Below are positions 1,007 through 43,460 of a DNA stretch of 45,326 nt, one piece after another; the first letter of the stretch is position 1, and each line of letters begins with the position of its first letter. The translations under genes were made by a program, and so were the position numbers. Source of the DNA: a phage. The notes below the pieces were generated by a model that saw nothing but the letters and a program-made list of their open reading frames with translations, had not been told where the DNA came from and did not search any database. Location: sequence record PX405663.1; one strand, given 5' to 3'.

Positions 1007-1258
1007 TTATTTTGTCTCCCAGCGGTCAATTGTTTTTGCTTCGGATGCAACTGCGAAGCGAACATATTCCAGATTGGAATCCGCCCAAATATAAAAGTCG
1101 GGGTTAGTAAAGGTGGTGCGCTTAATTTGCGCGGGGGTGTTACGGCGTTTATCTATTACCGCAACGCGGGATTGAAAGCTGCCGATGCGTTCGAATAGCC
1201 AATAGTACGGGCGCTGGTCGCGGGAATCCACCGCCTCGATTAGCGTGAAGCGTGCCAT
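1007..1258 (-). CDS. hypothetical protein (83 aa)
   Basis: ORF track; GAGGA SD 8 nt upstream of ATG. Confidence 0.5.
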   Translation of the reverse strand: MARFTLIEAVDSRDQRPYYWLFERIGSFQSRVAVIDKRRNTPAQIKRTTFTNPDFYIWADSNLEYVRFAVASEAKTIDRWETK

Positions 1259-1306
1259 TGTCTCGTCCTCTAAAAATAGGCCCGCAGATTAGCGGGCCGG
1301 ATAATA

Positions 1307-1825
1307 TTAGTCTTCCAGTTCGAAATAAGTTTCGACGATTTCTTTAAGATCTTTGTGGAAGTCTTCGACGTCGTCATCTTCCAGCTTGGCGATTGATTTG
1401 ATCTCGAACGATTCCAGCAGGTCGTCGAATTCGTCGTTGGCATCGTCGTCGTCACCACCAGCGATAATAGCGGCATACTGTTTGATCTCGTCGCGCATCT
1501 CTGCCAGCGGATCGGCATCTTTCTTGCCTTTGCCTTTCGCCGGTGCTTTTTTACCCTTCGCCGGTTTTTCGTCTTCGGCTTCTTCATCGTCGTCATCTTC
1601 TACGACTTCTTTTTTGGCCTTACCTTTAGCCGGTGCTTTTTTGGTTTTCGCCGGTTTTTCGTCTTCGGTTTCATCGTCGTCATCTTCTACGACTTCTTTT
1701 TTGGCCTTAGACGGCTTCTTGTCTTCCGGCTTACCAACGGCAGCGCCAACGGTTTCATAATGCTTAGCGATGGTTTCCAGTGCTACTACGCCGCGAGTAA
1801 TCAGGTTTACGATTTGTTCAAACAT
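1307..1825 (-). CDS. highly charged tandem-repeat protein (172 aa), first gene of the minus-strand arm
   Basis: ORF track; GGAGA SD; protein has two copies of an approx 25-aa block KAKKEVVEDDDDE..EDEKPAK.KKAPAKGK and an acidic C-terminal half; underlying approx 75-bp tandem DNA repeat near 1540..1720. Confidence 0.6.
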   Translation of the reverse strand: MFEQIVNLITRGVVALETIAKHYETVGAAVGKPEDKKPSKAKKEVVEDDDDETEDEKPAKTKKAPAKGKAKKEVVEDDDDEEAEDEKPAKGKKAPAKGKGKKDADPLAEMRDEIKQYAAIIAGGDDDDANDEFDDLLESFEIKSIAKLEDDDVEDFHKDLKEIVETYFELED

Positions 1826-1925
1826 GGTATATCTCCGATTGGTTAAGTTTGGCGTCCGGGCGGTATGCCCGGTCGACGAGGGAGATATTAGATTGGTTGC
1901 AGAAGGGAGTCAACAACTAATTTCA

Positions 1926-1962
1926 AAAAAAAAGCGCCGAGGCAAAATGCAACGGCGCTAAC
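1926..1962 (-). terminator. hairpin plus T-run (read on minus strand) in the divergent control region; possible leader attenuator
   Basis: Plus strand shows A9 then AGCGCCG...CGGCGCT inverted repeat; on the minus strand this is a stem-loop followed by T9. Confidence 0.35.
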
Positions 1963-2025
1963 CAATAAGAGACAATGAGACGGGAATTATTATTACACGC
2001 GTGCGCGCCCGTTTCAATATCCAAA

Positions 2026-2058
2026 GGATTTGACACCGTGCAGTTTTGGGTGTAGTTT
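2026..2058 (+). promoter_or_regulatory. sigma70-like promoter for the plus-strand arm
   Basis: TTGACA, 17-nt spacer, TAGTTT about 35 nt upstream of the 2090 start codon. Confidence 0.4.
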
Positions 2059-2089
2059 CGTTGGTCATTAACCAACTGAGGGCAGAGCA

Positions 2090-2419
2090 ATGAATGTAAA
2101 CGACGCAATCGAAATGTTAACGAAGACTGTTAGCAGTGAAACAAGCCGGTCATGGGCTTATACCGATGCCGTTGGGGCGGTGTTGTTTGAAATCGAACGT
2201 CTGCGACTTACCGAAAAAGAATTGCGCGCGAAGCTGGAATTACTCAACGGTACTGCAGCAAGCAAGCTGCAAAAGCACAATGAAGAAATGGAAGAATACA
2301 AAAAACAGGTTATCCGTTTGCGCGCCGAGGGCAAATCCTGGGCAATGATTGCCGAGTTGACTGGGATTAATCAGAGCACAGTGCGCTCCTGGGTACGCAA
2401 TAATAAAACTTCTAAGTAA
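2090..2419 (+). CDS. coiled-coil plus C-terminal helix-turn-helix DNA-binding protein (109 aa)
   Basis: ORF track; GAGGG SD; C-terminal SWAMIAELTGINQSTVRSWV resembles an HTH. Confidence 0.55.
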   Translation: MNVNDAIEMLTKTVSSETSRSWAYTDAVGAVLFEIERLRLTEKELRAKLELLNGTAASKLQKHNEEMEEYKKQVIRLRAEGKSWAMIAELTGINQSTVRSWVRNNKTSK

Positions 2420-4694: not shown

Positions 4695-4794
4695 ATTTTG
4701 CGCGCATTGGTTGCCATTTTGCGTGCTTTTAGTCGGTCGTATTGGTTGCCGTGTAGTGTAAATATAGTGAATAGTTATGCAATAAAACTGCATA

Positions 4795-5112: not shown

Positions 5113-5169
5113 ATTGGTTGCACCCACCCTGGCACCCTGCTATATTGGTTGCACACCAACATGAGGACC
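5113..5169 (+). promoter_or_regulatory. tandem TATTGGTTGCA promoter-like motifs with TATATT -10 and conserved leader
   Basis: TTGCAC, 17 nt, TATATT; 27-nt stretch TATATTGGTTGCACACCAACATGAGGA is identical to the minus-strand sequence at 16214..16240. Confidence 0.55.
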
Positions 5170-16213: not shown

Positions 16214-16262
16214 CATTTCCTCATGTTGGTGTGCAACCAATATACTGCAACCAACATACGCA
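16214..16262 (-). promoter_or_regulatory. tandem TATTGGTTGCA promoter-like motifs driving the antisense DnaN-like operon
   Basis: Minus strand reads TATGTTGGTTGCAGTATATTGGTTGCACACCAACATGAGGA; 27 nt identical to 5143..5169. Confidence 0.55.
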
Positions 16263-34688: not shown

Positions 34689-34717
34689 AAAAGAAAGGGC
34701 CATACGGCCCTTTCTTA
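34688..34717. terminator. bidirectional rho-independent terminator between the convergent arms
   Basis: A-rich run, GGGCCATACGGCCC hairpin, T-rich run; flanked by stop codons of both convergent genes. Confidence 0.65.
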
Positions 34718-35290
34718 ATTTGAGTTTTCCCAGTCCATTTTGCGCCGCACCAGAGGGCTTTCGTAGTATTCCTTACCTTCAACCTCCACTAAAGGCCAAT
34801 CGTTCACGATCACGTATGGCTCTGCTATATCCTCAATCACACCGTGCGCGCTATGCTGCCCGAACGACACACCGACCAGAATAACACCGGCAACTCGACG
34901 GGTCAGATACTCGCGAGCGCAACGTGCCTCGACCAGTCCTCGACGGATGCCGCTGGTGGCTTTGACCTCATAGGTCCAGACGGCATCAATCATATGTTCG
35001 CGGAAGTCAGGGCCGGACTTAACCTTGCGCTTGCCGACCATGATGATATCGCCGCGGTCAATGGTGTTGGCGCTAAACAGGCCGGTACGCATAAGTAAGC
35101 CTTGCGGTATGCAACTACGCCCGCCCGCCTGCCCCTCAAGGTACATGCCCGCAAACATCTCGCCCAGCACACCGACAAGACGGCTTTGCTTGCACGCGTC
35201 AGACTTTAGGCGCCATTGGTCAAACTCGATGCTTGCGATCATTGCCGCCAGGTGGAATTGTTTACCGGTTATTTCATATTCGCCGTACAT
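34715..35290 (-). CDS. hypothetical protein (191 aa), possible PD-(D/E)xK-like fold
   Basis: ORF track; GAGGA SD; weak D...E.K pattern only. Confidence 0.5.
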   Translation of the reverse strand: MYGEYEITGKQFHLAAMIASIEFDQWRLKSDACKQSRLVGVLGEMFAGMYLEGQAGGRSCIPQGLLMRTGLFSANTIDRGDIIMVGKRKVKSGPDFREHMIDAVWTYEVKATSGIRRGLVEARCAREYLTRRVAGVILVGVSFGQHSAHGVIEDIAEPYVIVNDWPLVEVEGKEYYESPLVRRKMDWENSN

Positions 35291-35332
35291 TGTGTGGTCC
35301 TCATTGATGCGGGCCGAAGCCCGCGATTAGAG

Positions 35333-35827
35333 TTATTTAAGTGCGCCAGTCACCAGTGTTTTTTCCATGTTGCGGAAGTCTTCCGGCGTCATGAGGATTT
35401 TGGATCCGTCTTCGCCGGTGAGCACGACCATAGGCTGGAATTCTTGACCCGCAATGCCGAACTTAGCAGCATTGAAATTAGTGGCTTTGATCTTGGTAGG
35501 CCAGTCTTTTAGGCTGTCGTATTGCGCTGCCGTTGTATCGACCTGGATCTCGTCCTGCACGGTCATATAAGACTCGCCCAGCAGGGCGGCATACGCCACC
35601 AGATCCACGATATTATCTTCCTGGTGCTTACGGTGCTGGCGCACCAGCTTCAGGCAGATCAGGAAGGTCCAGGCTTCTTGCTCGGTCAGGTCGCGACCGG
35701 TAAGCGCGTTAAACACGGCGGCGATCTGTTTAGCGCTGCGTTCTTCTTTCGCGTTGTCATAGCCGTTTTCTTTCCCGCGCTGTTCCATAGTGGTGGCGGC
35801 GTTTTTGCAGTATTCGTATGCTTTCAT
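35333..35827 (-). CDS. hypothetical protein (about 164 aa)
   Basis: Track ORF 35333..35953 trimmed to MKAYEY with AAGGA SD. Confidence 0.5.
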   Translation of the reverse strand: MKAYEYCKNAATTMEQRGKENGYDNAKEERSAKQIAAVFNALTGRDLTEQEAWTFLICLKLVRQHRKHQEDNIVDLVAYAALLGESYMTVQDEIQVDTTAAQYDSLKDWPTKIKATNFNAAKFGIAGQEFQPMVVLTGEDGSKILMTPEDFRNMEKTLVTGALK

Positions 35828-35837
35828 TATGTTTTCC

Positions 35838-35905
35838 TTTTTAGTGGGGGCGGTATTGCCCCCGACGTGATTAAGATACTGCAACCAACCTATTGGTTGC
35901 AAGTG
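35838..35905 (-). promoter_or_regulatory. inverted pair of TGCAACCAA/TTGGTTGCA motifs followed by a leader hairpin
   Basis: Plus strand 35880..35902 TGCAACCAACCTATTGGTTGCA; GGGGGCGGTATTGCCCCC hairpin between motif and SD. Confidence 0.45.
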
Positions 35906-36360
35906 AATTTTGCAACGTTTATCGCATAAATTTTCGGGACCAGATCGCCGCACGCCCGACGAATTGCCGCGATGTTCTTCGGACAGTCTTCAATGATGAC
36001 CAGTTCCGACACGTCCGCGTAACAGACCATTTTGAACACGGCGCACGCCTTAAACTCTGGTGGCGGGGTGTCGTCCAGCATGTGGCGCATAAACAACCGG
36101 CCTACAGGGAATACCTCCAATTGCTCGGCGGTAGTGTCCCAACATTCTCTCTGCCGGTTGGTCAGATACGCGATCTCGAAGCCTTGATCTCTGTACATGC
36201 GCAGCAGCGGCAGCATATCCATGTTCAGGTCTTCGCGTACGTGCGCTTTGTGCCACTTCGCCCAAAATGTTGATTTGGTTTTTATACCCGGAACCAGGTC
36301 GGCACGCGCATCGCTTGAACCGTTAATAACGCCATCCAGATCGCAAATCAGTAATTTCAT
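35890..36360 (-). CDS. HAD-superfamily phosphatase-like protein
   Basis: 156 aa; N-terminal LICDLDGVI matches HAD motif I; GAGGAG SD. Confidence 0.5.
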   Translation of the reverse strand: MKLLICDLDGVINGSSDARADLVPGIKTKSTFWAKWHKAHVREDLNMDMLPLLRMYRDQGFEIAYLTNRQRECWDTTAEQLEVFPVGRLFMRHMLDDTPPPEFKACAVFKMVCYADVSELVIIEDCPKNIAAIRRACGDLVPKIYAINVAKFTCNQ

Positions 36361-36581
36361 TTCAACTCCTCGATCAGATTCATACGAACAACACGGGCAG
36401 AAAAAGCGTCACACACAAGATGACAACGGGCGGACATTACAAGCCAGCCGGTAAGGTCCATGCCGAGCAATTGCTCTGGGCGACTGACCCGCTGCACTTT
36501 GTTCTCCCTCGGGTTAATTTGGTAGCGTTTAACGATTTCGTCCACGACGCGCATACTGCGGTCAACGACTAAGATATTCAT
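36357..36581 (-). CDS. small hypothetical protein
   Basis: Track ORF 36357..36590 (GTG) or the ATG at 36581. Confidence 0.3.
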   Translation of the reverse strand: MNILVVDRSMRVVDEIVKRYQINPRENKVQRVSRPEQLLGMDLTGWLVMSARCHLVCDAFSARVVRMNLIEELK

Positions 36582-37047
36582 GTAGCTCACTCTCGCTCAT
36601 TATTTCAATTTGTGCGCTGCCGCTGGGCGGCGCTTCGTCAAATATTATTAATTGCTGGCACTTGTTATTGCTCGGACCGACTTCGCCGGTGACGGCGTGG
36701 ATGAATCTAATCCGCCAGTCCAGAAGAATTATCATATTGGCGGTCTTCCGGGCCAGCCTCGCCCACTTCGTCGACGTGTCCTGATTCAGCAGCATGACAG
36801 TCCGGCGTCCGTGCGCTGCGCACTCGACCCACGGCAGCGGATCGGAATATGGCGGGTTGCACCATTTCCACCCTTTCAACTCGGACCAGTCAGCATCAAG
36901 CGCGCTGTGTTCCGCCGTGAAGTATCGCGGTAGCAGGTGATTGGCATCGCTTGCCGCCATATCGTAACGGAATCGGTATTTCCGGCGCAGCGGTTTAAAT
37001 AAAGCTGGCGGCGTGCGCCAGCTATCTTTCTGCTCACTCTTCGTCAT
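36562..37047 (-). CDS. DNA N6-adenine methyltransferase (phage Dam-like)
   Basis: Track ORF 36562..37164 trimmed to avoid a 130-nt overlap; WRTPPALF and WCNPPYS (NPPY catalytic motif). Confidence 0.65.
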   Translation of the reverse strand: MTKSEQKDSWRTPPALFKPLRRKYRFRYDMAASDANHLLPRYFTAEHSALDADWSELKGWKWCNPPYSDPLPWVECAAHGRRTVMLLNQDTSTKWARLARKTANMIILLDWRIRFIHAVTGEVGPSNNKCQQLIIFDEAPPSGSAQIEIMSESELHEYLSR

Positions 37048-37492
37048 TCTGCGGGTCCAGTGCGTACAGGGCCGTTTTCTTGTCTCGGGTAAGTACGCGC
37101 TGGATCCGCGCCATCTCATCCTTGCCAAGAGGTCGGCTATCGGAATAGTAGCTGCCGTTCGCACGCCACGCTATCAGCACCAGGTCTTTCCTGTCGATCT
37201 TAGACTGGCGGCCCTTCGGTCGCACGTACTCCTCGGCGCGTTTACAATGCTCGCGCAGACCTTCGGCAGTGATGCGGTTTAGCGCCACGCTGGTGGTGTA
37301 TCCTGTGCGCTGCATAATCCCCATCAATTCGAAAAGCAGTTCGAAGCGCTCCTCTAACTCCATGCGGCGCTTTTCTTCCGTTTCATAGCTTGACAGGTAG
37401 GTATCTGCCAGCGCGCTGACGCGTTCTGCCTGCTCGCGGGCTTTAAGGCATTGCGCGGACCAGTAATCTTTTTCTTCTTGTAAAATTTTCAT
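37034..37492 (-). CDS. hypothetical coiled-coil protein (152 aa)
   Basis: ORF track; GGAG SD. Confidence 0.5.
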   Translation of the reverse strand: MKILQEEKDYWSAQCLKAREQAERVSALADTYLSSYETEEKRRMELEERFELLFELMGIMQRTGYTTSVALNRITAEGLREHCKRAEEYVRPKGRQSKIDRKDLVLIAWRANGSYYSDSRPLGKDEMARIQRVLTRDKKTALYALDPQNDEE

Positions 37493-37501
37493 CGTGTTGT
37501 C

Positions 37502-37580
37502 TCCAGGTATTAAAAAGGGCGTCCAAACCGGACACCCTCAATATAATGCAACCAATACGATTATGCAACCAATTTACGCA
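37502..37580 (-). promoter_or_regulatory. tandem TATTGGTTGCA motifs with TATATT, followed by leader hairpin plus T-run
   Basis: Minus strand reads AAATTGGTTGCATAATCGTATTGGTTGCATTATATTGAG then GGGTGTCCGGTTTGGACGCCC TTTTT then SD and ATG. Confidence 0.5.
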
Positions 37581-37897
37581 TAAAAGTTAGGGTCGCGCGC
37601 AACGTCCACCAAATAAAGATTGCTGATCCGGTTGCCGTAATGGCCTGGCGTGCGCTGACGGCACACAACGGCGAAGCCTGGGGGGATTGTATTGCCGGTC
37701 GCGATAATCCACGCCACGCGCGCGCCAGACAGCGTCTTGCCGTTGCATTCGATACGAGTACCGCCATCGGCAGTATTGAGGTTGCCAATCTTGCAGCCGG
37801 TTGACTTAAGGCGGATAACGCCGGTCTTGCTGTCGTAGGAAAAAAGCTGATTGGTCATTGCCACTGAAAAGTCGATGGCGTCGAATGCAGTATTCAT
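37574..37897 (-). CDS. HNH endonuclease-like protein (possibly degenerate)
   Basis: 107 aa; ARVAWIIATG...GHYGNRISNL resembles phage HNH homing-endonuclease layout but canonical His residues are not all evident. Confidence 0.35.
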   Translation of the reverse strand: MNTAFDAIDFSVAMTNQLFSYDSKTGVIRLKSTGCKIGNLNTADGGTRIECNGKTLSGARVAWIIATGNTIPPGFAVVCRQRTPGHYGNRISNLYLVDVARDPNFYA

Positions 37898-38589
37898 TTT
37901 AAATTTTCCTCGTTAACCGCTATTGCGAAGCCGCGCGGGGTGAGCGACCTGATTAATTTGGTGCGGGCAGATTTGCCTCCGAGGCGACTATACTGCTTCG
38001 AGTACCCTTTTTCAACGAAAACAGGTTTCTTCTCTGGCATACGGAAGCCGTTGCCGGTCCATAAGCAGGTCAGCTTCGGATATGAATCGCGGGCGTTGAT
38101 GTATTCCGGGAATAACGGGTGCACGTCATCCTCCGGCAGATATCCGCCATACTCCCACGGATCAAACGAGTGGTCCGGCTTACGCCATTGAGTTGATAGC
38201 ACGCTGCGCGGATTCTCAATCATATATGGCACTTCGAAGAAGTCACCCAGGTAAGCGGCGATCTTCGCGGTGCGCACCGCCTTAAGCTGAAAGGCTGGGT
38301 CTTTTGCACGCTTGCGCGGGAAAGCTGGCGCACCGCTCACCGCCAGATCCGTACACGGTGGGAACGCATAAATGATATCCGGCGTACCGAAATCGCCATT
38401 CATCGCGCGGTCTACAAAGTCCAGATCAATAAACTCATTGCGATATCGGATCCCGCGACCATAAATCCGGTAGTCCAGGTAAGACCCGTGATCAGCTTCG
38501 GAGTAGTTGAAGCAATAACACTTATGCCCCATCTCGGCAGCACGCTCAATCATCAAGCCGCTGCCGTCAAACAATGACCAGATAATCAT
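37894..38589 (-). CDS. divergent C5-cytosine methyltransferase-like protein (231 aa)
   Basis: SLFDGSG (motif I-like FxGxG), FPPCTD (motif IV-like Pro-Cys), ENP (motif VI-like); shorter than typical; ATGA overlap with helicase gene. Confidence 0.4.
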   Translation of the reverse strand: MIIWSLFDGSGLMIERAAEMGHKCYCFNYSEADHGSYLDYRIYGRGIRYRNEFIDLDFVDRAMNGDFGTPDIIYAFPPCTDLAVSGAPAFPRKRAKDPAFQLKAVRTAKIAAYLGDFFEVPYMIENPRSVLSTQWRKPDHSFDPWEYGGYLPEDDVHPLFPEYINARDSYPKLTCLWTGNGFRMPEKKPVFVEKGYSKQYSRLGGKSARTKLIRSLTPRGFAIAVNEENLK

Positions 38590-40010
38590 TTGCGCGCCTT
38601 TTTAGCTTTCATGTATTCCATCAAGTCGTCCTGAATATCGCGCTTACTGTCGCGACGCTCGGCGACCAGTTCGTCAAGTGTGCCGCGTGCCTGGATAATA
38701 TAGACGAATACAGGACGGGGGTGTCCGGCTTGCATCTGGCGAACCGGCCCGATACGCTCCACGATCTGCGCAAAGTGCTCATAGTTCCAGGTGTCTGAGA
38801 AGATAGCAAGGTGGTGTCCGCCATCCTGCAAGTTAAGGCCGTGACCCGCCGATGCCGGGTGTGCGAACATGATGGGGATCTCGCCCCTGTTCCACGCTTC
38901 CATATCCTTATTGCCTTGCTTTCCCTTACCCATAGCGACGCCGTGTGGGAATTTCTTCTTAAGACGTGCCAAGTCATGCTTGTACTGGTATGCGACGAGC
39001 AACGGTGCGCCGTTCAACTCCTCCACGATACTTTCCAGCGCGTCCAGCTTAGCGTCGTGAATTTTCACCCATTCGTCGGTCCGTTCGCCGTCTTCGTCGA
39101 CCTTATACACGGCCCCGGAAGCAAGCTGAAGGCACTTAATGGTCTTCGACGCAGCGTTCGCCGCCTCCACAGTTCCGCTTTCCAGTTCGGCAAATAGCTC
39201 CGCTTCGAACTGGTCATAAATCTTGCGGGCTTTCCTCGGCAGGTCCACAACAACCGGCGTATAGATTGGTTTATCACATCCGAAGTATTCAGCCGCGTCA
39301 ACGGTGAGCGATACGTCAGACAGGCGTTGTTGTATTTCTTTCTCGGAGTTCTTGAGCGGGGCGTGTTGCATCGTGAAGCTGCCAGGCTTAACAGGCTTGC
39401 TAATAAACCAGCGGTCCGTAAATGCCTTATAGCTACTGCCGAGGCGTTCGCCACCATCGACAAACCACGTCTGACCCCACAGGTCTTTCAGTCCGTTTGG
39501 CGCGGGTGTGCCTGTAAGGTTAATCCAGCGCTTGACGCGCTTATGTGCGATCGCCGCCAGGGCGCGGGCGCGCTTACTGCCCTGCTTGCTGCGGTAGCCT
39601 TTCAGCTTAGTGGATTCATCGGCAACAACGACCGTAAAGGGCCACTCGTCGCCGCAATAGTCAACCAGCCACTCAACCACATCATAGTTAACACAAACCA
39701 CGTTAGCGTCGCTCTCAAGCGCAGCGATGCGGTCCTTCTCTGACCCGGTGCCGTCTACTACCAGCAGGGCGGGGAAGCGCCATTTCTCCTGCTCCGGGGG
39801 CCATGTACCGGACGCAACGCGCAGCGGGGCCAGCACCAGTACGCGGTCCTCCTGGTTGGACAGGATACCAGTCTGGAACATTTTATTCAGCGCCCACATA
39901 GTCGCGCCGGTTTTACCCGACCCCATTGTCGCCCATATATTGCATCGCTTATGCTTGAGGATGAACGCGGTTATCAACTTCTGATATTCGCGACGTCGGA
40001 AACGTGCCAT
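38586..40010 (-). CDS. SNF2/DEAD-like superfamily 2 helicase
   Basis: Track ORF 38586..40100 trimmed to MARFRR; Walker A GSGKTG, DEST Walker B-like, C-terminal helicase domain. Confidence 0.75.
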   Translation of the reverse strand: MARFRRREYQKLITAFILKHKRCNIWATMGSGKTGATMWALNKMFQTGILSNQEDRVLVLAPLRVASGTWPPEQEKWRFPALLVVDGTGSEKDRIAALESDANVVCVNYDVVEWLVDYCGDEWPFTVVVADESTKLKGYRSKQGSKRARALAAIAHKRVKRWINLTGTPAPNGLKDLWGQTWFVDGGERLGSSYKAFTDRWFISKPVKPGSFTMQHAPLKNSEKEIQQRLSDVSLTVDAAEYFGCDKPIYTPVVVDLPRKARKIYDQFEAELFAELESGTVEAANAASKTIKCLQLASGAVYKVDEDGERTDEWVKIHDAKLDALESIVEELNGAPLLVAYQYKHDLARLKKKFPHGVAMGKGKQGNKDMEAWNRGEIPIMFAHPASAGHGLNLQDGGHHLAIFSDTWNYEHFAQIVERIGPVRQMQAGHPRPVFVYIIQARGTLDELVAERRDSKRDIQDDLMEYMKAKKARK

Positions 40011-40014
40011 ATCT

Positions 40015-40233
40015 TTATTCCGCCTTTTTCCAGACTTCGGTTTCACTGTTCCAATTCCTTTTTGTGGCGTCGTAGTTGGTGCGGTGCCCGATGTGCACAC
40101 CCGTCGCCCTGAAGCCCTTAAATTTTTGCCAGCATACCGTCAACGGCAGCGGGTCGTTCATGCCCGCGATAAACCATACGCGATCGCCCGGTTTACATTC
40201 GCCCAGCTTGGTGAGTCGGTAATGATCTTTCAT
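40015..40233 (-). CDS. hypothetical protein (about 72 aa)
   Basis: ORF track 40015..40239; AGGAGA SD favours the second ATG. Confidence 0.4.
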   Translation of the reverse strand: MKDHYRLTKLGECKPGDRVWFIAGMNDPLPLTVCWQKFKGFRATGVHIGHRTNYDATKRNWNSETEVWKKAE

Positions 40234-40244
40234 CGTCATGTCTC

Positions 40245-40270
40245 CTAAAAATGGCGGGCTTGTCCCGCCG
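40245..40270 (-). terminator. intra-operon hairpin plus T-run (minus strand) whose stem is GCGGGACAAGCCCGC
   Basis: Read on the minus strand: stem-loop followed by ATTTTT. Confidence 0.4.
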
Positions 40271-40961: not shown

Positions 40962-43253
40962 TTATTTCCTGTATCTGTACATAATGTCGCCTTCCGCGGC
41001 AAGCGGGAAGCCTTTCGCCCAAACAGGCAGGTCGCACATCAGCGCGCATAGCTCCTCGGTCGTGTAGTCGTCAGTATCCGGAACTTCGGTGATCAATTCA
41101 TCGTGCACTGACAGGACGATCTCATAGCCAGCAGCCTCAACGCCGGGCATGGACCACGCGAGGATATCGCGACACAGCGCCTGTACGATGTTTTCCGTCA
41201 GTTTGCCGCCGTAGGTATACTGGAAGCCCCACTGGCGCGTCGTCTGATTCTCGCCCTGGTATTTGATGCGGGTGCTGGTGCGCTTCTTGCCGGTGTCTTC
41301 GTCGATCTCGGTCGTGACAGACAGCGCGATGCCGGGGTAGCTCATGATGCGCCCTGACGGCAACTCAATTTTCAACCACCACCCCGCGGCGTTCGGGTCG
41401 TCGCGCTCCTCGTCGAAGGTGGGGTCGTGCTTCGCCTTCGTGCGGACTATCTTGAGCGCTTTCTTGCCATCCGGGCGAACGTTCGCGCCAGCCCAGTACG
41501 CTTTGCCCGGATTGCGGATCGCGCAGAGCACCGCGTCTTCCAGTTCAGCCCAAAATTCTACCGTCTTCGGGTGCGACTCGCGCCACATTCGTTTGATCGC
41601 ATCACACGTCAACCATACGTTTTTCGGCAGTATATAAGTTGGGCGCTCGTCCTTCTTGCCAGGCTTCGGCGGGCGCTTCGCTTCGTTGATCCGGGCGTAC
41701 TCATAACCCCGTTTCGCCGCCGCCCAAATGTGATCGGGGAATGTGCCCTTCATCACTTCAGCCATCGCGTAAAGGTCGAGGCCCAGGTTTTTAGCGAACT
41801 GCAAGAACGCCGCCACGCCACCACCATAGCCCAGGCCCAATTCGCACGCCTTACCGATCTGGCGTAAGTCTTTGCGGTTGGCTTTAATGTATTCCGGGTC
41901 GAGGCCAAACATCTTACCGGCAGTTTCACAATAGATATCGCGACCCGCCCTAAACACCATTAGCGCGGTTTTCTCGCCAGCGATCCAGGCGAGGCCACGC
42001 CCTTCTACGTTGGAGAAGTCCGCTACGACAAACTTCTTACCCTTCGCCGGAATAATGCACCCGCGAACAGTAGAGGCCGTTAGCTTCGATATGTCATACG
42101 CCCAGTGTGCGGTCCCGCGTAACAGGGAGTTGATGCCGTTGGTGAGCATGTGCGACCGCACCCAAAACGCGACGTCGCTCTCGCCATCCCGGCGCTTAAT
42201 CTTCCCTTCGTGGTCGTCGCTATACTCGCCACGTGCCAGGTTTTGCGGCTGGAAGCCCTTTCCGGCCCAGCGTAGCGTGCGCTTTGCCCCACCATACTGA
42301 AGACAACCACGGCGGCGTCCATCGGCAGACAGCCCATTTACGAGCGGATTGTACTTAGTCGATGCCGTTGATGACGCGCCGAGGCGCATCTCGATAAGCA
42401 CTTTGCCCTCGTCGGGGAAGTCCGGGTCTTCCAGCAGTTCGTTAAGCGTGGATTTCTGCGCGTTGTGTATTGTGAACGCAGGTGCGAGGTCGCGCAGCGC
42501 TGGCAGGAAGTCATTGCCGGTCAGCTTACCGCCGAAGCGCTCCCATGCTTCTTCCTTCAATTCTTCCTTATGCGCCTGCACCGCTTTGATCGCGGCGTTA
42601 GCCAGGTCAACGTCCACATAGAAGCCGCGGTCGTTAATCATCTGGTCAATAAGCAGGATTTCATCTTCCTTCGGCGTGTTGCCCCAGTCTGGTATGCGCC
42701 AGTAGACTTCACGCATAGCAACAATATCCAGCGCGGCGTAGCGCAGGAATTTAGCCCACTCCTCGGGGTGCGTCTCGCGCGTATAGCGACGGATTTTGTA
42801 GGTCTTAGGGGTTGGCTTACAGAATCGTTTGATTAGCGCCTTGCCAGCCTTATCCTTCGCGTGCTCTGCGTCAACGCCCAACACCTGGCACTGCATATCG
42901 AGGCTACCCGGCAGCGCGTGGCGAAAGGCCATAATCATGGTATCTTCGATCTGGCCTACCGGCAGGTCAATGCCCCACTTCTCGCGAATAACCAGGCGGT
43001 CAAACAGGAGGCCGTTAGCCATCACGATTTTTGCTTTCTTGCGGGATACCCGGCGGAGCGCCTTGCGCAGTTCACGCGGCATTGTGGGGGATTCGGTGCA
43101 ATCCCATGTCTGTACGCGGCCCTCGTCGATGGCGTATGTGCAAATCATAATCTCGGTAGTTGGGTGTTCCGCGTAGGCGTATGCGCCCACTTTCTTCAGG
43201 TCCACCCCGCTAAATGTCTCGGTATCGAGAAAAAGGCGTTCGAAGTCTTTCAT
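40962..43253 (-). CDS. family A DNA polymerase with 3'-5' exonuclease domain
   Basis: 763-aa ORF; N-terminal LFLDTETFSG (Exo I DxE), C-terminal polymerase region; GAGGA SD. Confidence 0.9.
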   Translation of the reverse strand: MKDFERLFLDTETFSGVDLKKVGAYAYAEHPTTEIMICTYAIDEGRVQTWDCTESPTMPRELRKALRRVSRKKAKIVMANGLLFDRLVIREKWGIDLPVGQIEDTMIMAFRHALPGSLDMQCQVLGVDAEHAKDKAGKALIKRFCKPTPKTYKIRRYTRETHPEEWAKFLRYAALDIVAMREVYWRIPDWGNTPKEDEILLIDQMINDRGFYVDVDLANAAIKAVQAHKEELKEEAWERFGGKLTGNDFLPALRDLAPAFTIHNAQKSTLNELLEDPDFPDEGKVLIEMRLGASSTASTKYNPLVNGLSADGRRRGCLQYGGAKRTLRWAGKGFQPQNLARGEYSDDHEGKIKRRDGESDVAFWVRSHMLTNGINSLLRGTAHWAYDISKLTASTVRGCIIPAKGKKFVVADFSNVEGRGLAWIAGEKTALMVFRAGRDIYCETAGKMFGLDPEYIKANRKDLRQIGKACELGLGYGGGVAAFLQFAKNLGLDLYAMAEVMKGTFPDHIWAAAKRGYEYARINEAKRPPKPGKKDERPTYILPKNVWLTCDAIKRMWRESHPKTVEFWAELEDAVLCAIRNPGKAYWAGANVRPDGKKALKIVRTKAKHDPTFDEERDDPNAAGWWLKIELPSGRIMSYPGIALSVTTEIDEDTGKKRTSTRIKYQGENQTTRQWGFQYTYGGKLTENIVQALCRDILAWSMPGVEAAGYEIVLSVHDELITEVPDTDDYTTEELCALMCDLPVWAKGFPLAAEGDIMYRYRK

Positions 43254-43419
43254 TGCTTAATCCTCACTACGGCGTCAGCGCTGCCGATCATGGAGAATAT
43301 ACCGTCGGAAAGGGCTATCTCCTCGCCGTTGTTGCGGATCTCGGCAACTGTGAAATACTCCCCCAGTAGCTTGGACCATACCCGCATTCCGACTTTTACT
43401 TCGCTGGCTTTAATGCGCA
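43252..43419 (-). CDS. small hypothetical protein (about 55 aa), not in ORF track
   Basis: Hand-read ORF MRIKASEVKVGMRVWSKLLGEYF...; stop overlaps polymerase start (ATGA). Confidence 0.3.
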
Positions 43420-43433
43420 TTTTTCATTGTCCT

Positions 43434-43460
43434 ATTAAAAAGCCCGCATTAAGCGGGCTT
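43434..43460 (-). terminator. rho-independent terminator (minus strand) after the SSB-like gene
   Basis: Minus strand AAGCCCGCTTAATGCGGGCTT followed by TTTTT. Confidence 0.55.

What the first reader, a model, noticed from the sequence alone, without database searches (positions are those of the whole stretch)
37502..37530. Structured leaders between promoter motif and start codon in minus-arm operons (hairpin plus T-run at 37502..37530, hairpin at 35843..35868, hairpin plus T-run at 1926..1962)
Several minus-strand promoters are followed, before the Shine-Dalgarno, by a GC-rich hairpin, in two cases with a T-run, i.e. an intrinsic-terminator-like element inside the 5' leader. This pattern suggests attenuation or antitermination-dependent expression, or RNA processing sites, rather than simple constitutive transcription.
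Basis: partly seen in the sequence, partly recalled or inferred. Interest (0 to 1): 0.4.

Follow-up and report, generated by a model that had tools for sequence, protein, structure and literature searches.

The report
Terminators and 5' hairpins after phage promoters
In this E. coli phage genome the three flagged hairpins are real and conserved, but they look like three ordinary, different things: a terminator with a promoter nested in it, a hairpin capping an mRNA 5' end, and the terminator of a tiny separate RNA.

Summary
The window is a whole Dhillonvirus (HK578-like) genome. All three hairpins exist, fold better than shuffles (z -2.2 to -3.2) and are kept in about 20 relatives through structure-preserving changes. 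They are not one class.

A (37515..37539, T-run 37512..37516) is a canonical intrinsic terminator after the HNH gene. The conserved promoter P_A sits so close that its predicted start (37533) lies inside the 5' arm. Read-through RNA would meet a -17 kcal/mol terminator, while P_A transcripts keep only 4 bp.

B (35844..35866) never has a U-tract. It begins at the predicted +1, as a 5'-terminal stem-loop. A sister hairpin C (1851..1877) follows promoter P_L1.

D (1933..1959, T9) lies upstream of P_L1. It lies downstream of a second, invariant promoter P_L2, which predicts a terminated RNA of about 56 nt.

Three further internal terminators have no downstream promoter, so the replication genes behind them need read-through. 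Leaky or regulated termination in the minus arm is therefore plausible. The specific "attenuator in the leader" geometry fits only D. A and D are already annotated as putative terminators in relatives. Start sites and termination are predictions, and no transcript data exist. Interest is low to moderate.

The parts
37515..37539 (-). Hairpin A: 10-bp stem (GAGGGUGUCC/GGACGCCCUU) with loop GGUUU. This is the stem-loop of an intrinsic terminator after the HNH gene (stop codon 37576..37574).
   Evidence: dG is -17.6 kcal/mol and z = -3.23. It is conserved in 20 of 20 relatives, and all 7 sequence variants fold alike at -12.5 to -19.1. The equivalent is annotated 'putative transcriptional terminator' in WF5505 and lies under a 'terminator' feature in PTXU06, WFI and WF5505.
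37512..37516 (-). U-tract of terminator A (TTTTT, then AATA).
   Evidence: Read from the sequence. The tract has 5-10 T in every relative.
37540..37572 (-). Promoter P_A. The -35 is TTGCAT (37568..37563), the spacer is 17 nt, and the -10 is TATATT (37545..37540). Two copies of the motif TTGGTTGCA lie at 37572..37564 and 37555..37547. The predicted start is G at 37533.
   Evidence: The -10 is conserved as TATATT or TATCTT in all relatives, whereas the alternative upstream CATAAT is not conserved. The start site is an inference from the usual sigma-70 spacing and was not measured.
35844..35866 (-). Hairpin B: GU.GGGGGC-AAUACC-GCCCCC.AC. It starts at the predicted +1 of promoter P_B and has no U-tract.
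   Evidence: dG is -14.7 kcal/mol and z = -2.16. The stem is kept in about 17 relatives, with both arms shortened together in 5 loci and broken by a mismatch in 2. None has a T-run.
35873..35902 (-). Promoter P_B. The -35 is TTGCAA (35902..35897), the spacer is 18 nt, and the -10 is TATCTT (35878..35873; TATAGT in most relatives). It holds the palindrome TTGCAACCAA-TAGG-TTGGTTGCA.
1933..1959 (-). Hairpin D: AGCGCCG..GCA-UUU-UGC..CGGCGCU. This is the stem-loop of an intrinsic terminator in the divergent early control region.
   Evidence: dG is -16.4 kcal/mol and z = -2.72. L079 has two compensatory pairs (AUCCCCG/CGGGGAU) and L010 an unrelated complementary stem. The equivalent is annotated as a terminator in WF5505.
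1925..1933 (-). U-tract of terminator D (T9). It also lies at about -48 to -56 of P_L1, the position of an UP element.
   Evidence: Read from the sequence. Relatives have T8 to T13. The UP-element role is an inference.
1989..2017 (-). Promoter P_L2: TTGAAA, 17-nt spacer, TGtAATAAT (extended -10). The predicted start is about 1981, giving a terminated RNA of about 56 nt (1981..~1926) with the 5' sequence GUCUCAUUGUCUCUUAUUGGUU.
   Evidence: It scores 10 of 12 with TG. Both hexamers are invariant in 19 Dhillonvirus sequences; the sequence varies just upstream of the predicted +1 and is constant from +1 on. L010 has an analogous promoter and keeps the block CTCATTGTCT.
1885..1913 (-). Promoter P_L1: TTGACT, 17-nt spacer, TAATAT, with the motif TGCAACCAA in the spacer. 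It lies between D and the first minus-arm gene (ATG at 1825).
1851..1877 (-). Hairpin C (not in the finding): core CCGGGC-AUACC-GCCCGG at 1872..1856, starting at the predicted +1 of P_L1. It is a sister of hairpin B, sharing the start GUCG, the loop (A)AUACC and stems that differ by compensatory changes.
   Evidence: It is poorly conserved: most relatives carry a structured element of about 150 nt at this site, and a few have weaker hairpins or none.
1279..1298 (-). Internal terminator T1 (GGCCCGC-UAAUCU-GCGGGCC, then UAUUUUUAG) after the first minus-arm gene. The SD and ATG (1258) follow directly.
   Evidence: It is conserved in relatives.
43441..43459 (-). Internal terminator (AGCCCGC-UUAAU-GCGGGCU, then UUUUAAUA) directly before the small gene 43250..43420 and the DNA polymerase gene.
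   Evidence: The equivalent is annotated in WF5505.
40253..40269 (-). Internal terminator (GGCGGG-ACAAG-CCCGCC, then AUUUUUAGG) directly before gene 40015..40239 and the helicase gene.
   Evidence: The equivalent is annotated in WF5505.

Best explanation
The three elements are three different, ordinary transcription signals of a Dhillonvirus.

(1) A is a Rho-independent terminator that ends the helicase-Dcm-HNH transcription unit. The next promoter, P_A, is nested against it, so that RNA polymerase starting there begins inside the 5' arm at about 37533.
- RNA coming from upstream would form the full 10-bp hairpin plus U-tract and would terminate, completely or partly.
- P_A transcripts would keep only a 4-bp 5' hairpin and would run on into the downstream genes.
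- A would thus be a terminate-and-restart boundary, not an attenuator of P_A.

(2) B, and its sister C after P_L1, are GC-rich stem-loops without a U-tract. They begin at the predicted first nucleotide (GUCG...). The most likely role is a 5'-terminal stem-loop that protects the mRNA from 5'-end-dependent decay. A protein-binding role is possible.

(3) D terminates a short transcript of about 56 nt from the strong, invariant promoter P_L2. The main leftward promoter P_L1 lies just downstream of D, whose T-tract sits where an UP element would. D then defines a small RNA unit of the 5'-UTR premature-termination type. It may also insulate P_L1.

What is shown and what is inferred:
- Shown: the sequences, folds, conservation and geometry.
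- Inferred: the start sites, termination itself and every function.
For: Identity and context:
- The genome is 96% identical to phage phiEco273, and 159 Dhillonvirus records match.
- The minus arm is the replication arm and starts at the divergent region 1826..2089.

Element A:
- dG is -17.6 kcal/mol and z = -3.2.
- It is present in 20 of 20 relatives at a fixed 0-2 nt from the -10. Two stem/loop forms both pair, and the T-run is always 5-10.
- The -10 is conserved and the alternative upstream -10 is not.
- The full hairpin is -17.2 kcal/mol, against -5.4 for RNA started at the 7th nt after the -10.
- The module stays in place while three different genes follow it.
- It has the same build (hairpin, UUUUUA, SD, ATG) as three other internal terminators.
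- It is annotated as a terminator in relatives.

Elements B and C:
- No relative has a T-run after B.
- The stem is kept in most relatives, with concerted arm shortening in 5 loci.
- B and C are the only two copies of GUCG..GGGC-(A)AUACC-GCCC on that strand. Both follow a motif-bearing promoter at the same distance.

Element D:
- It lies 12 nt or more upstream of the P_L1 -35.
- P_L2 matches 10 of 12 positions and has TG.
- Compensatory stems occur in L079 and L010, and the 5' block CTCATTGTCT is conserved.
- Nothing is annotated in the interval, and the only ORF across it has no plausible product.
- There is experimental precedent for promoter-proximal terminators that yield short RNAs in virulent phages (PMC10914365).
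Against: - No transcript data exist for any Dhillonvirus. Every start site is a prediction from sigma-70 spacing.
- The P_A and P_B -35 hexamers match the consensus at only 3 of 6 positions, and the tool's promoter scan did not list them. Their use may depend on whatever binds the TTGGTTGCA motif, which could shift the start.
- Formal covariation in A is weak. The lower stem shows one-sided changes only, and the upper stem changes by an indel-type rebuild. L084 has one mismatch.
- B's stem is invariant G/C runs, so it carries no classical covariation, and two relatives have an A-C mismatch.
- C is not conserved.
- No significant target was found for the putative small RNA.
- Conservation of P_L2 within a region that is 90-99% identical is weak evidence by itself.
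Confidence: 0.5

Rival explanations
1. A, B and D are attenuators or antitermination targets inside 5' leaders. Transcripts start upstream of each hairpin, stop there by default, and read through only when a phage early factor (or an RNA element) modifies RNA polymerase. This would give temporal control of the minus arm.
For: - A and D are canonical terminators.
- Three more internal terminators have no downstream promoter, so the replication genes need read-through.
- D does lie in the leader of P_L2 transcripts.
- Promoter-proximal terminators with two read-through modes are documented in virulent phages (PMC10914365).
- Most small early proteins have unknown function, so an unrecognised antiterminator cannot be excluded.
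Against: - The predicted P_A start lies inside A's stem.
- B has no U-tract in any relative.
- P_L1 lies downstream of D, so gene expression does not require reading through D.
- No N/Q-like protein and no boxA/boxB-like sequence was seen.
- No alternative antiterminator pairing is predicted for D, whose 5' 22 nt stay unpaired.
Confidence: 0.2
2. The P_L2-D unit is a genuine trans-acting small regulatory RNA, Hfq-type. It would have a single-stranded seed CUCAUUGUCU(C) and a terminator hairpin with a long U tail, and would act on phage or host mRNAs, for example by pairing over start codons of the form GACAAUGA. This refines part 3 of the best explanation.
For: - It has its own strong promoter, a 22-nt unpaired 5' region, and a terminator with U8-13.
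- The 10-nt block is kept in the divergent L010 while the stem is replaced.
- A 9-nt complement, GAGACAATG, covers the start codon of gene 1007..1258 and is conserved in Dhillonviruses.
- Three of five 8-mer complements in the window lie in translation initiation regions, two of them over the start codon itself.
Against: - Complementarity to start regions is not clearly better than for shuffled seeds: p = 0.35 for the best site, 0.10 for the top five and 0.04 for the mean.
- Genome-wide 9-mer matches are at the chance level once the self-match is removed.
- The gene-2 start-region match is absent in L010.
- Host targets could not be searched.
Confidence: 0.25
3. The hairpins act at the DNA level. 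They would be inverted repeats serving as protein-binding sites, recombination hot spots or module boundaries, and RNA folding would be incidental.
For: - The slot downstream of A holds three alternative genes in different relatives.
- The site of C is a swap point: a short hairpin, a 150-nt element, or nothing.
- The loop of terminator T1 is inverted between relatives, TAATCT versus AGATTA. This is what flipping a DNA hairpin would give.
Against: - G-U pairs (U18-G33 in A, and more in L008 and L080) pair in RNA only on the minus-strand transcript. They are A-C mismatches on the other strand.
- The strictly conserved one-sided T-runs after A and D make sense only for RNA.
- Each hairpin is positioned relative to a -10 and an SD.
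Confidence: 0.07
4. The hairpins are RNA processing sites (RNase III or RNase E) that cut polycistronic early RNA into stable units, as in the T7 early region.
For: They are intercistronic stem-loops in a long operon. B and C have no terminator tail.
Against: - The stems are only 6-10 bp, far shorter than the roughly 20-bp duplexes RNase III needs (established knowledge, not tested here).
- No Rfam family matched anywhere in the window.
Confidence: 0.05

Closest known systems
Rho-independent terminators inside phage operons (for example lambda tL1/tR1 and the T4 early terminators that middle-mode promoters bypass)
   Same: A, D and the three other minus-arm sites have a GC-rich stem of 6-10 bp, a 4-6-nt loop and a U-tract immediately after. 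They lie between co-directional genes. As with T4 middle genes, downstream genes can be reached both by read-through and by a new promoter (P_A, P_B). The T4 and lambda comparisons come from general knowledge and were not tested here.
   Different: At A the restart promoter lies upstream of the terminator and overlaps it, so its start site falls in the stem. No antiterminator (N, Q) or MotA-like factor was identified. Termination efficiency is unknown.
Terminators in 5' UTRs just downstream of promoters in virulent Pseudomonas phages, giving short RNAs plus read-through (ONT-cappable-seq, PMC10914365)
   Same: P_L2 followed after about 50 nt by terminator D, upstream of an early gene, predicts the same pattern: an abundant short RNA with the same 5' end as any longer read-through transcript. 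That study also found such units conserved among relatives.
   Different: Here nothing is measured. A second promoter (P_L1) lies between the terminator and the gene. The predicted RNA of about 56 nt is shorter than that method's detection limit of about 80 nt.
5'-terminal stabilising stem-loops (E. coli ompA 5' UTR; T7 phi10 leader)
   Same: B and C are stable hairpins that begin at or within about 2 nt of the predicted 5' end. They lie upstream of the SD, do not occlude it, and lack a U-tract. The properties of these precedents come from general knowledge.
   Different: The 5' end is only predicted and no half-life data exist. B and C share a loop sequence, (A)AUACC, which a pure stability element would not need to conserve.
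Lambda oop RNA, or pR'-tR' 6S RNA
   Same: Both are short phage RNAs made from a constitutive promoter and ended by a strong intrinsic terminator in a control region.
   Different: The P_L2-D RNA is not antisense to any gene, unlike oop. No Q-like antiterminator or qut site is evident, unlike pR'-tR'. There is no sequence similarity.

Membership tests
Rho-independent (intrinsic) terminator | GC-rich stem-loop (about 5-14 bp, loop 3-8 nt) | tested here: met
   A has a 10-bp stem and a 5-nt loop. D has a 7-bp outer stem with a small inner stem. B has 6-8 bp and a 6-nt loop.
Rho-independent (intrinsic) terminator | U-tract of at least 4-5 U starting within 0-2 nt of the stem | tested here: met
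   Met for A (U5, and 5-10 in relatives) and for D (U9, and 8-13 in relatives). Not met for B, which is followed by ACUAAAAAGG in all relatives. B is therefore not filed here.
Rho-independent (intrinsic) terminator | Causes 3' ends and release of RNA polymerase | not testable with these tools
   No Term-seq or in vitro data exist for this genus.
Transcription attenuator (regulated terminator inside a 5' leader) | The transcript start lies upstream of the complete terminator hairpin | tested here: inconclusive
   The test rests on promoter geometry only. For A it is not met: the start is predicted at 37533, inside the 5' arm. For D it is met with respect to P_L2, whose start is about 1981. No start site was measured.
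Transcription attenuator (regulated terminator inside a 5' leader) | A competing antiterminator structure, leader peptide, ligand-binding domain or dedicated factor | tested here: not met
   In the D RNA the 5' 22 nt stay unpaired and no alternative fold appears. No Rfam family, riboswitches included, matches in the window. No N/Q-like protein was found among 10 early proteins. This is a limited test.
Lambda N/nut or HK022 put processive antitermination | boxA/boxB (a 5-bp stem with a GNRA-like pentaloop) or a put two-hairpin RNA after early promoters, plus an N protein for nut | tested here: not met
   The loops of B and C are (A)AUACC on 6-bp G/C stems, with no boxA-like sequence nearby. PHROGs and Pfam found no N or Q. 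There was no put model to search with.
5'-terminal mRNA-stabilising stem-loop | A stable hairpin at most about 2-4 nt from the 5' end, not occluding the RBS | tested here: inconclusive
   B starts at the predicted +1 (35866) and C at the predicted +1 (1877). In both the SD is free. The 5' ends are predictions only.
Hfq-type trans-acting small RNA (for the P_L2-D unit) | Own promoter, a Rho-independent terminator with a long U tail, and a conserved single-stranded seed | tested here: met
   All are sequence predictions.
Hfq-type trans-acting small RNA (for the P_L2-D unit) | Conserved complementarity to target mRNAs | tested here: inconclusive
   A 9-nt match lies over the start codon of gene 1007..1258. 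Complementarity to start regions is not clearly above that of shuffled seeds, and the match is absent in L010.

The most novel reading that the evidence does not exclude
The divergent early control region may encode a conserved, previously unannotated small RNA of about 56 nt (P_L2 to D, seed CUCAUUGUCU) that regulates phage or host translation. The adjacent P_L1 leader, which is hairpin C in this window, may be a swap site. In most Dhillonviruses, and in several other siphovirus groups, that site carries a covarying structured RNA of about 150 nt with no Rfam family at the extreme 5' end of an early transcript. Together these would make 5'-leader RNAs a regulated, exchangeable layer of early gene control in these phages.
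Probability: 0.25. Interest if true: 0.6.

Novelty: new member of a known kind. Interest (0 to 1): 0.3.

Why it matters
As stated, the finding describes routine phage transcription punctuation. Two of the three sites are already annotated as putative terminators in GenBank relatives.

What could be useful is the following:
- A gives a compact terminate-and-restart design, with the start site inside the terminator stem. It explains how a promoter can sit directly upstream of a strong terminator, and it could serve as an insulating part in synthetic constructs.
- The chain of promoter-less internal terminators makes Dhillonviruses, which are widely used in defence-system screens, a simple test case. 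They can show whether replication-gene timing depends on leaky termination or on an unknown antiterminator.
- The P_L2-D unit is a cheap, testable candidate for a small RNA encoded by a lytic phage.

Tried and rejected
- **Rfam.** The whole window and a relative, at gathering thresholds, gave no match. A relaxed search of the relative's control region gave only sub-threshold terminator look-alikes.
- **Literature.** Searches on Dhillonvirus promoters, terminators and transcriptomes, and on the motif itself, found nothing relevant.
- **Metagenome scan.** The pattern TTGGTTGCANTATNTT returned 120 stretches, none related to the window by BLAST.
- **Small-RNA target search.** Genome-wide 9-mers are at the chance level. 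Duplex energies with 62 annotated start regions of PaulFeyerabend are not convincingly better than for shuffled seeds (the duplex structure strings printed there looked odd, so the absolute energies may be unreliable). The gene-2 match is not kept in L010.
- **Coding in the D interval.** The 61-codon ORF has a TTG start and no plausible product. The 'resolvase/HTH' annotations in relatives belong to the neighbouring gene 2090..2419.
- **Alternative -10 for P_A.** An upstream CATAAT would put all of A in a leader, but it is not conserved.
- **Nested promoter at T1.** A TAATAT lies 5 nt upstream of T1, but no -35 is present and it overlaps the stop codon.
- **150-nt element as coding sequence.** Reading it as an N-terminal extension of the first gene, as some records annotate, was rejected. 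The changes are nonsynonymous yet compensatory in RNA.
- **Formal pair counts on hairpin A.** These were not run, because the two stem forms differ in register in the alignment.

Full report
**What the window is.** Region 34700..38600 is 96% identical to Escherichia phage phiEco273 and matches 159 records, almost all Dhillonvirus (HK578-like siphoviruses of E. coli). The 45.3-kb window is a whole, circularly permuted genome. The annotation of StarDew shows that the minus arm holds the DNA-metabolism genes. It starts at the divergent intergenic region 1826..2089, runs leftwards across the window junction, and ends at the bidirectional terminator 34691..34716. I found no paper with transcript mapping, promoter analysis or terminator analysis for this genus. 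Everything below about start sites and termination is therefore inference from sequence.

**The observation.** All three hairpins are present on the minus strand.
- A is GAGGGUGUCC-GGUUU-GGACGCCCUU at 37539..37515, followed by UUUUU at 37516..37512. dG is -17.6 kcal/mol and z = -3.23.
- B is GU.GGGGGC-AAUACC-GCCCCC.AC at 35866..35844, with dG -14.7 and z = -2.16.
- D is AGCGCCG...CGGCGCU at 1959..1933, followed by nine T. dG is -16.4 and z = -2.72.

Relative to 4000 random 40-nt windows of the genome, the 40 nt after the -10 hexamers rank at 1.3% (A) and 3.8% (B). Eight other candidate promoters have unstructured leaders. Structured leaders are thus a property of three promoters and are not a rule.

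**The promoters.**
- There are 11 exact copies, and 22 with at most one mismatch, against 11.5 +/- 3.2 expected.
- The copies lie in intergenic regions, often in pairs, with one copy placed 1-3 nt upstream of a -10-like hexamer.
- The motif is absent from the related phage group whose DNA polymerase is about 65% identical.
- P_A reads TTGCAT, 17-nt spacer, TATATT (37568..37540).
- P_B reads TTGCAA, 18-nt spacer, TATCTT (35902..35873).
- P_L1 reads TTGACT, 17-nt spacer, TAATAT (1913..1885).
- A further promoter without the motif, P_L2, reads TTGAAA, 17-nt spacer, TGtAATAAT (2017..1989). It is the best sigma-70 match in the region (10 of 12 plus TG).
- P_L2 stands back to back with the rightward promoter TTGACA, 17-nt spacer, TAGTTT.

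**Element A.**
- In 20 of 20 relatives the hairpin begins 0-2 nt after the -10.
- It exists in two forms. One has a GGGUGUCC/GGACGCCC core with loop GGUU(U). The other has GGGUGUUCC/GGAACGCCC with loop GAAG, that is, an added U-A pair and a new loop.
- Some G-U pairs are present. The T-run always has 5-10 T.
- All seven variants fold the same way, at -12.5 to -19.1 kcal/mol.
- The -10 is conserved (TATATT or TATCTT), while an alternative upstream CATAAT is not.
- With the usual sigma-70 spacing, the start is the G at 37533 (7th nucleotide, preceded by a pyrimidine). Any start 6-9 nt from the hexamer lies within the 5' arm.
- RNA started there keeps a 4-bp hairpin (-5.4 kcal/mol) in place of the 10-bp one (-17.2).
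- A also has exactly the layout of three other internal minus-arm terminators: hairpin, UUUUUA, SD, ATG. These lie at 1298..1279, 43459..43441 and 40269..40253.
- The equivalents of A and D are annotated as 'putative transcriptional terminator' in phage WF5505. A 'terminator' feature also lies under the A match in PTXU06 and WFI.

My reading is that A ends the helicase-Dcm-HNH unit and that P_A restarts transcription from inside its stem. The P_A/A module stays fixed while three different genes follow it in different relatives.

**Element B and its sister C.**
- B is followed by ACUAAAAAGG and the SD in every relative, and never by a T-run. It is not a canonical terminator on either strand.
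- Its G/C stem is kept, with both arms one base shorter in five loci. Two loci have an A-C mismatch.
- The predicted start (35866) is the first base of the hairpin.
- C (core CCGGGC-AUACC-GCCCGG) likewise begins at the predicted +1 of P_L1.
- B and C are the only two copies of GUCG..GGGC-(A)AUACC-GCCC on that strand. Their stems differ at two positions on both sides.

A hairpin flush with the 5' end and clear of the SD is the arrangement of known 5' stabilisers (general knowledge: ompA, T7 phi10). I take that as the most likely role, at moderate confidence. The shared loop leaves room for a protein-binding function. C itself is not conserved, as described under the side finding below.

**Element D.**
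- D is not between P_L1 and the start codon. It ends 12 nt upstream of the P_L1 -35.
- It is about 22 nt downstream of the predicted start of P_L2 (about 1981). This gives an RNA of about 56 nt: 5'-GUCUCAUUGUCUCUUAUUGGUU, then the hairpin, then U9.
- Across 19 Dhillonvirus sequences the P_L2 hexamers are invariant. The sequence varies just upstream of the predicted +1 and is constant from +1 onwards.
- L079 has two compensatory pairs in the stem.
- The divergent L010 (polymerase 81% identical) has a different promoter and an unrelated complementary stem with U13. It still keeps the block CTCATTGTCT.
- Nothing is annotated there in relatives, and the only ORF across it is implausible.

This is the pattern found experimentally in virulent Pseudomonas phages. 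There, 42 terminators lie in 5' UTRs just downstream of promoters, and they give abundant short RNAs plus some read-through (PMC10914365).

I looked for targets of the putative seed.
- A 9-nt complement covers the start codon of gene 1007..1258 and is conserved within the genus.
- Overall complementarity to start regions is not clearly above that of shuffled seeds.
- The match is absent in L010.

The function of this RNA therefore remains open. D's T-tract also lies where an UP element for P_L1 would be (inference).

**Does the arm use attenuation or antitermination?**
- The three promoter-less internal terminators mean that the nuclease, polymerase and helicase genes can only be reached by read-through.
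- I found no recognisable N or Q protein among ten early proteins.
- I found no Rfam element in the window.
- Leaky terminators that set expression ratios are the simpler alternative.

The specific picture of a promoter, then an attenuator, then the gene fits only D.

**Side finding outside the window.**
- At the site of C, most Dhillonviruses, including the closest relative, carry a non-coding element of about 150 nt.
- BLAST finds it in 172 phage records. These include Drexlerviridae (PHB17, ityhuna, swan01, KMI8, Motto), Murrayvirus Lumpael, Sortsnevirus IME279 and Klebsiella phage KA2-1. In the seven loci examined it lies in an intergenic gap of about 200-250 nt, just after a promoter-like sequence, on the gene strand.
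- An 11-sequence alignment gives 10 of 31 predicted pairs with two-sided compensatory changes. The outer closing helix also covaries by eye.
- There is no Rfam match.
- A covariance model built from the alignment finds it in 14 Dhillonvirus loci. It does not find it in the window or in the 65%-polymerase group.
- It is dispensable, since this phage and a few others lack it. It may be a new structured RNA family of early leaders.

**Verdict.** The hairpins are real and under selection. They are best explained as ordinary signals of three kinds, and two of them are already annotated in relatives. The attenuation reading is partly supported in spirit and is not supported as a common mechanism.

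Noticed in passing
Not in the window. The site corresponds to window ~1850..1872. See L041:6143-6305, L207:~500-660, L208, L209, L210, L211, L212, L213.: Most Dhillonviruses, and several other siphovirus groups (Drexlerviridae, Murrayvirus, Sortsnevirus, Klebsiella phage KA2-1), carry a conserved non-coding element of about 150 nt at the extreme 5' end of an early transcript. In an 11-sequence alignment, 10 of 31 predicted pairs show compensatory changes. It has no Rfam match, and some records mis-annotate it as coding. This window lacks it and has short hairpin C instead.
   Followed up: partly
window 1893, 5114, 5145, 5698, 16232, 16246, 32347, 35880, 35893, 37547, 37564 (9-mers), plus near-copies at 4707, 4742, 40506, 44318, 44334: The motif (A)TTGGTTGCA occurs in either orientation, often in pairs or as a palindrome. 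It lies in intergenic regions, with one copy 1-3 nt upstream of a -10-like hexamer. It is specific to Dhillonviruses. It looks like the binding site of a phage regulator overlapping the promoter spacers.
   Followed up: partly
window 2090..2419 (+): The first rightward early gene encodes a 109-aa protein with a C-terminal helix-turn-helix. It passes the Pfam cut-offs for HTH_23, HTH_28 and Sigma70_r4_2. Relatives annotate it variously as Gam-like, resolvase or transposase. It is a candidate binder of the promoter motif.
   Followed up: no
window 1279..1298 and homologous sites in L012, L041, L081, L011, L042, L003: The loop of internal terminator T1 is TAATCT in some relatives and its reverse complement AGATTA (or ATATTA) in others, with identical stems. 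It looks as if the whole hairpin had been flipped at the DNA level.
   Followed up: no
window 1307..1825 (-): The first minus-arm gene, bracketed by P_L1 and terminator T1, encodes a 172-aa protein. It has tandem repeats that are strongly acidic and lysine-rich (KKEVVEDDDDE...KPAKGKKAPAKGK). It matches phrog_3127 (unknown function) and no Pfam family.
   Followed up: no
window ~5141..5167 (+) and ~16244..16218 (-): Two promoters on opposite strands share an identical 27-nt stretch, TATATTGGTTGCACACCAACATGAGGA. It spans the -10, a small hairpin (UUGGU-UGCAC-ACCAA) and the SD.
   Followed up: no
window 37492..37574 and homologous sites in relatives: The slot just downstream of the P_A/terminator A module holds different genes in different relatives. 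These are the 152-aa gene (PHROG annotation 'DNA ligase'), an extra small gene of about 80 codons, or the methyltransferase directly (HK578). It is a variable-gene insertion point.
   Followed up: partly
window 2012..2044: The divergent early promoters P_L2 and P_R stand back to back. Their -35 hexamers are only 12 bp apart, and the short inverted repeat ATCC-TTT-GGAT lies between them.
   Followed up: no
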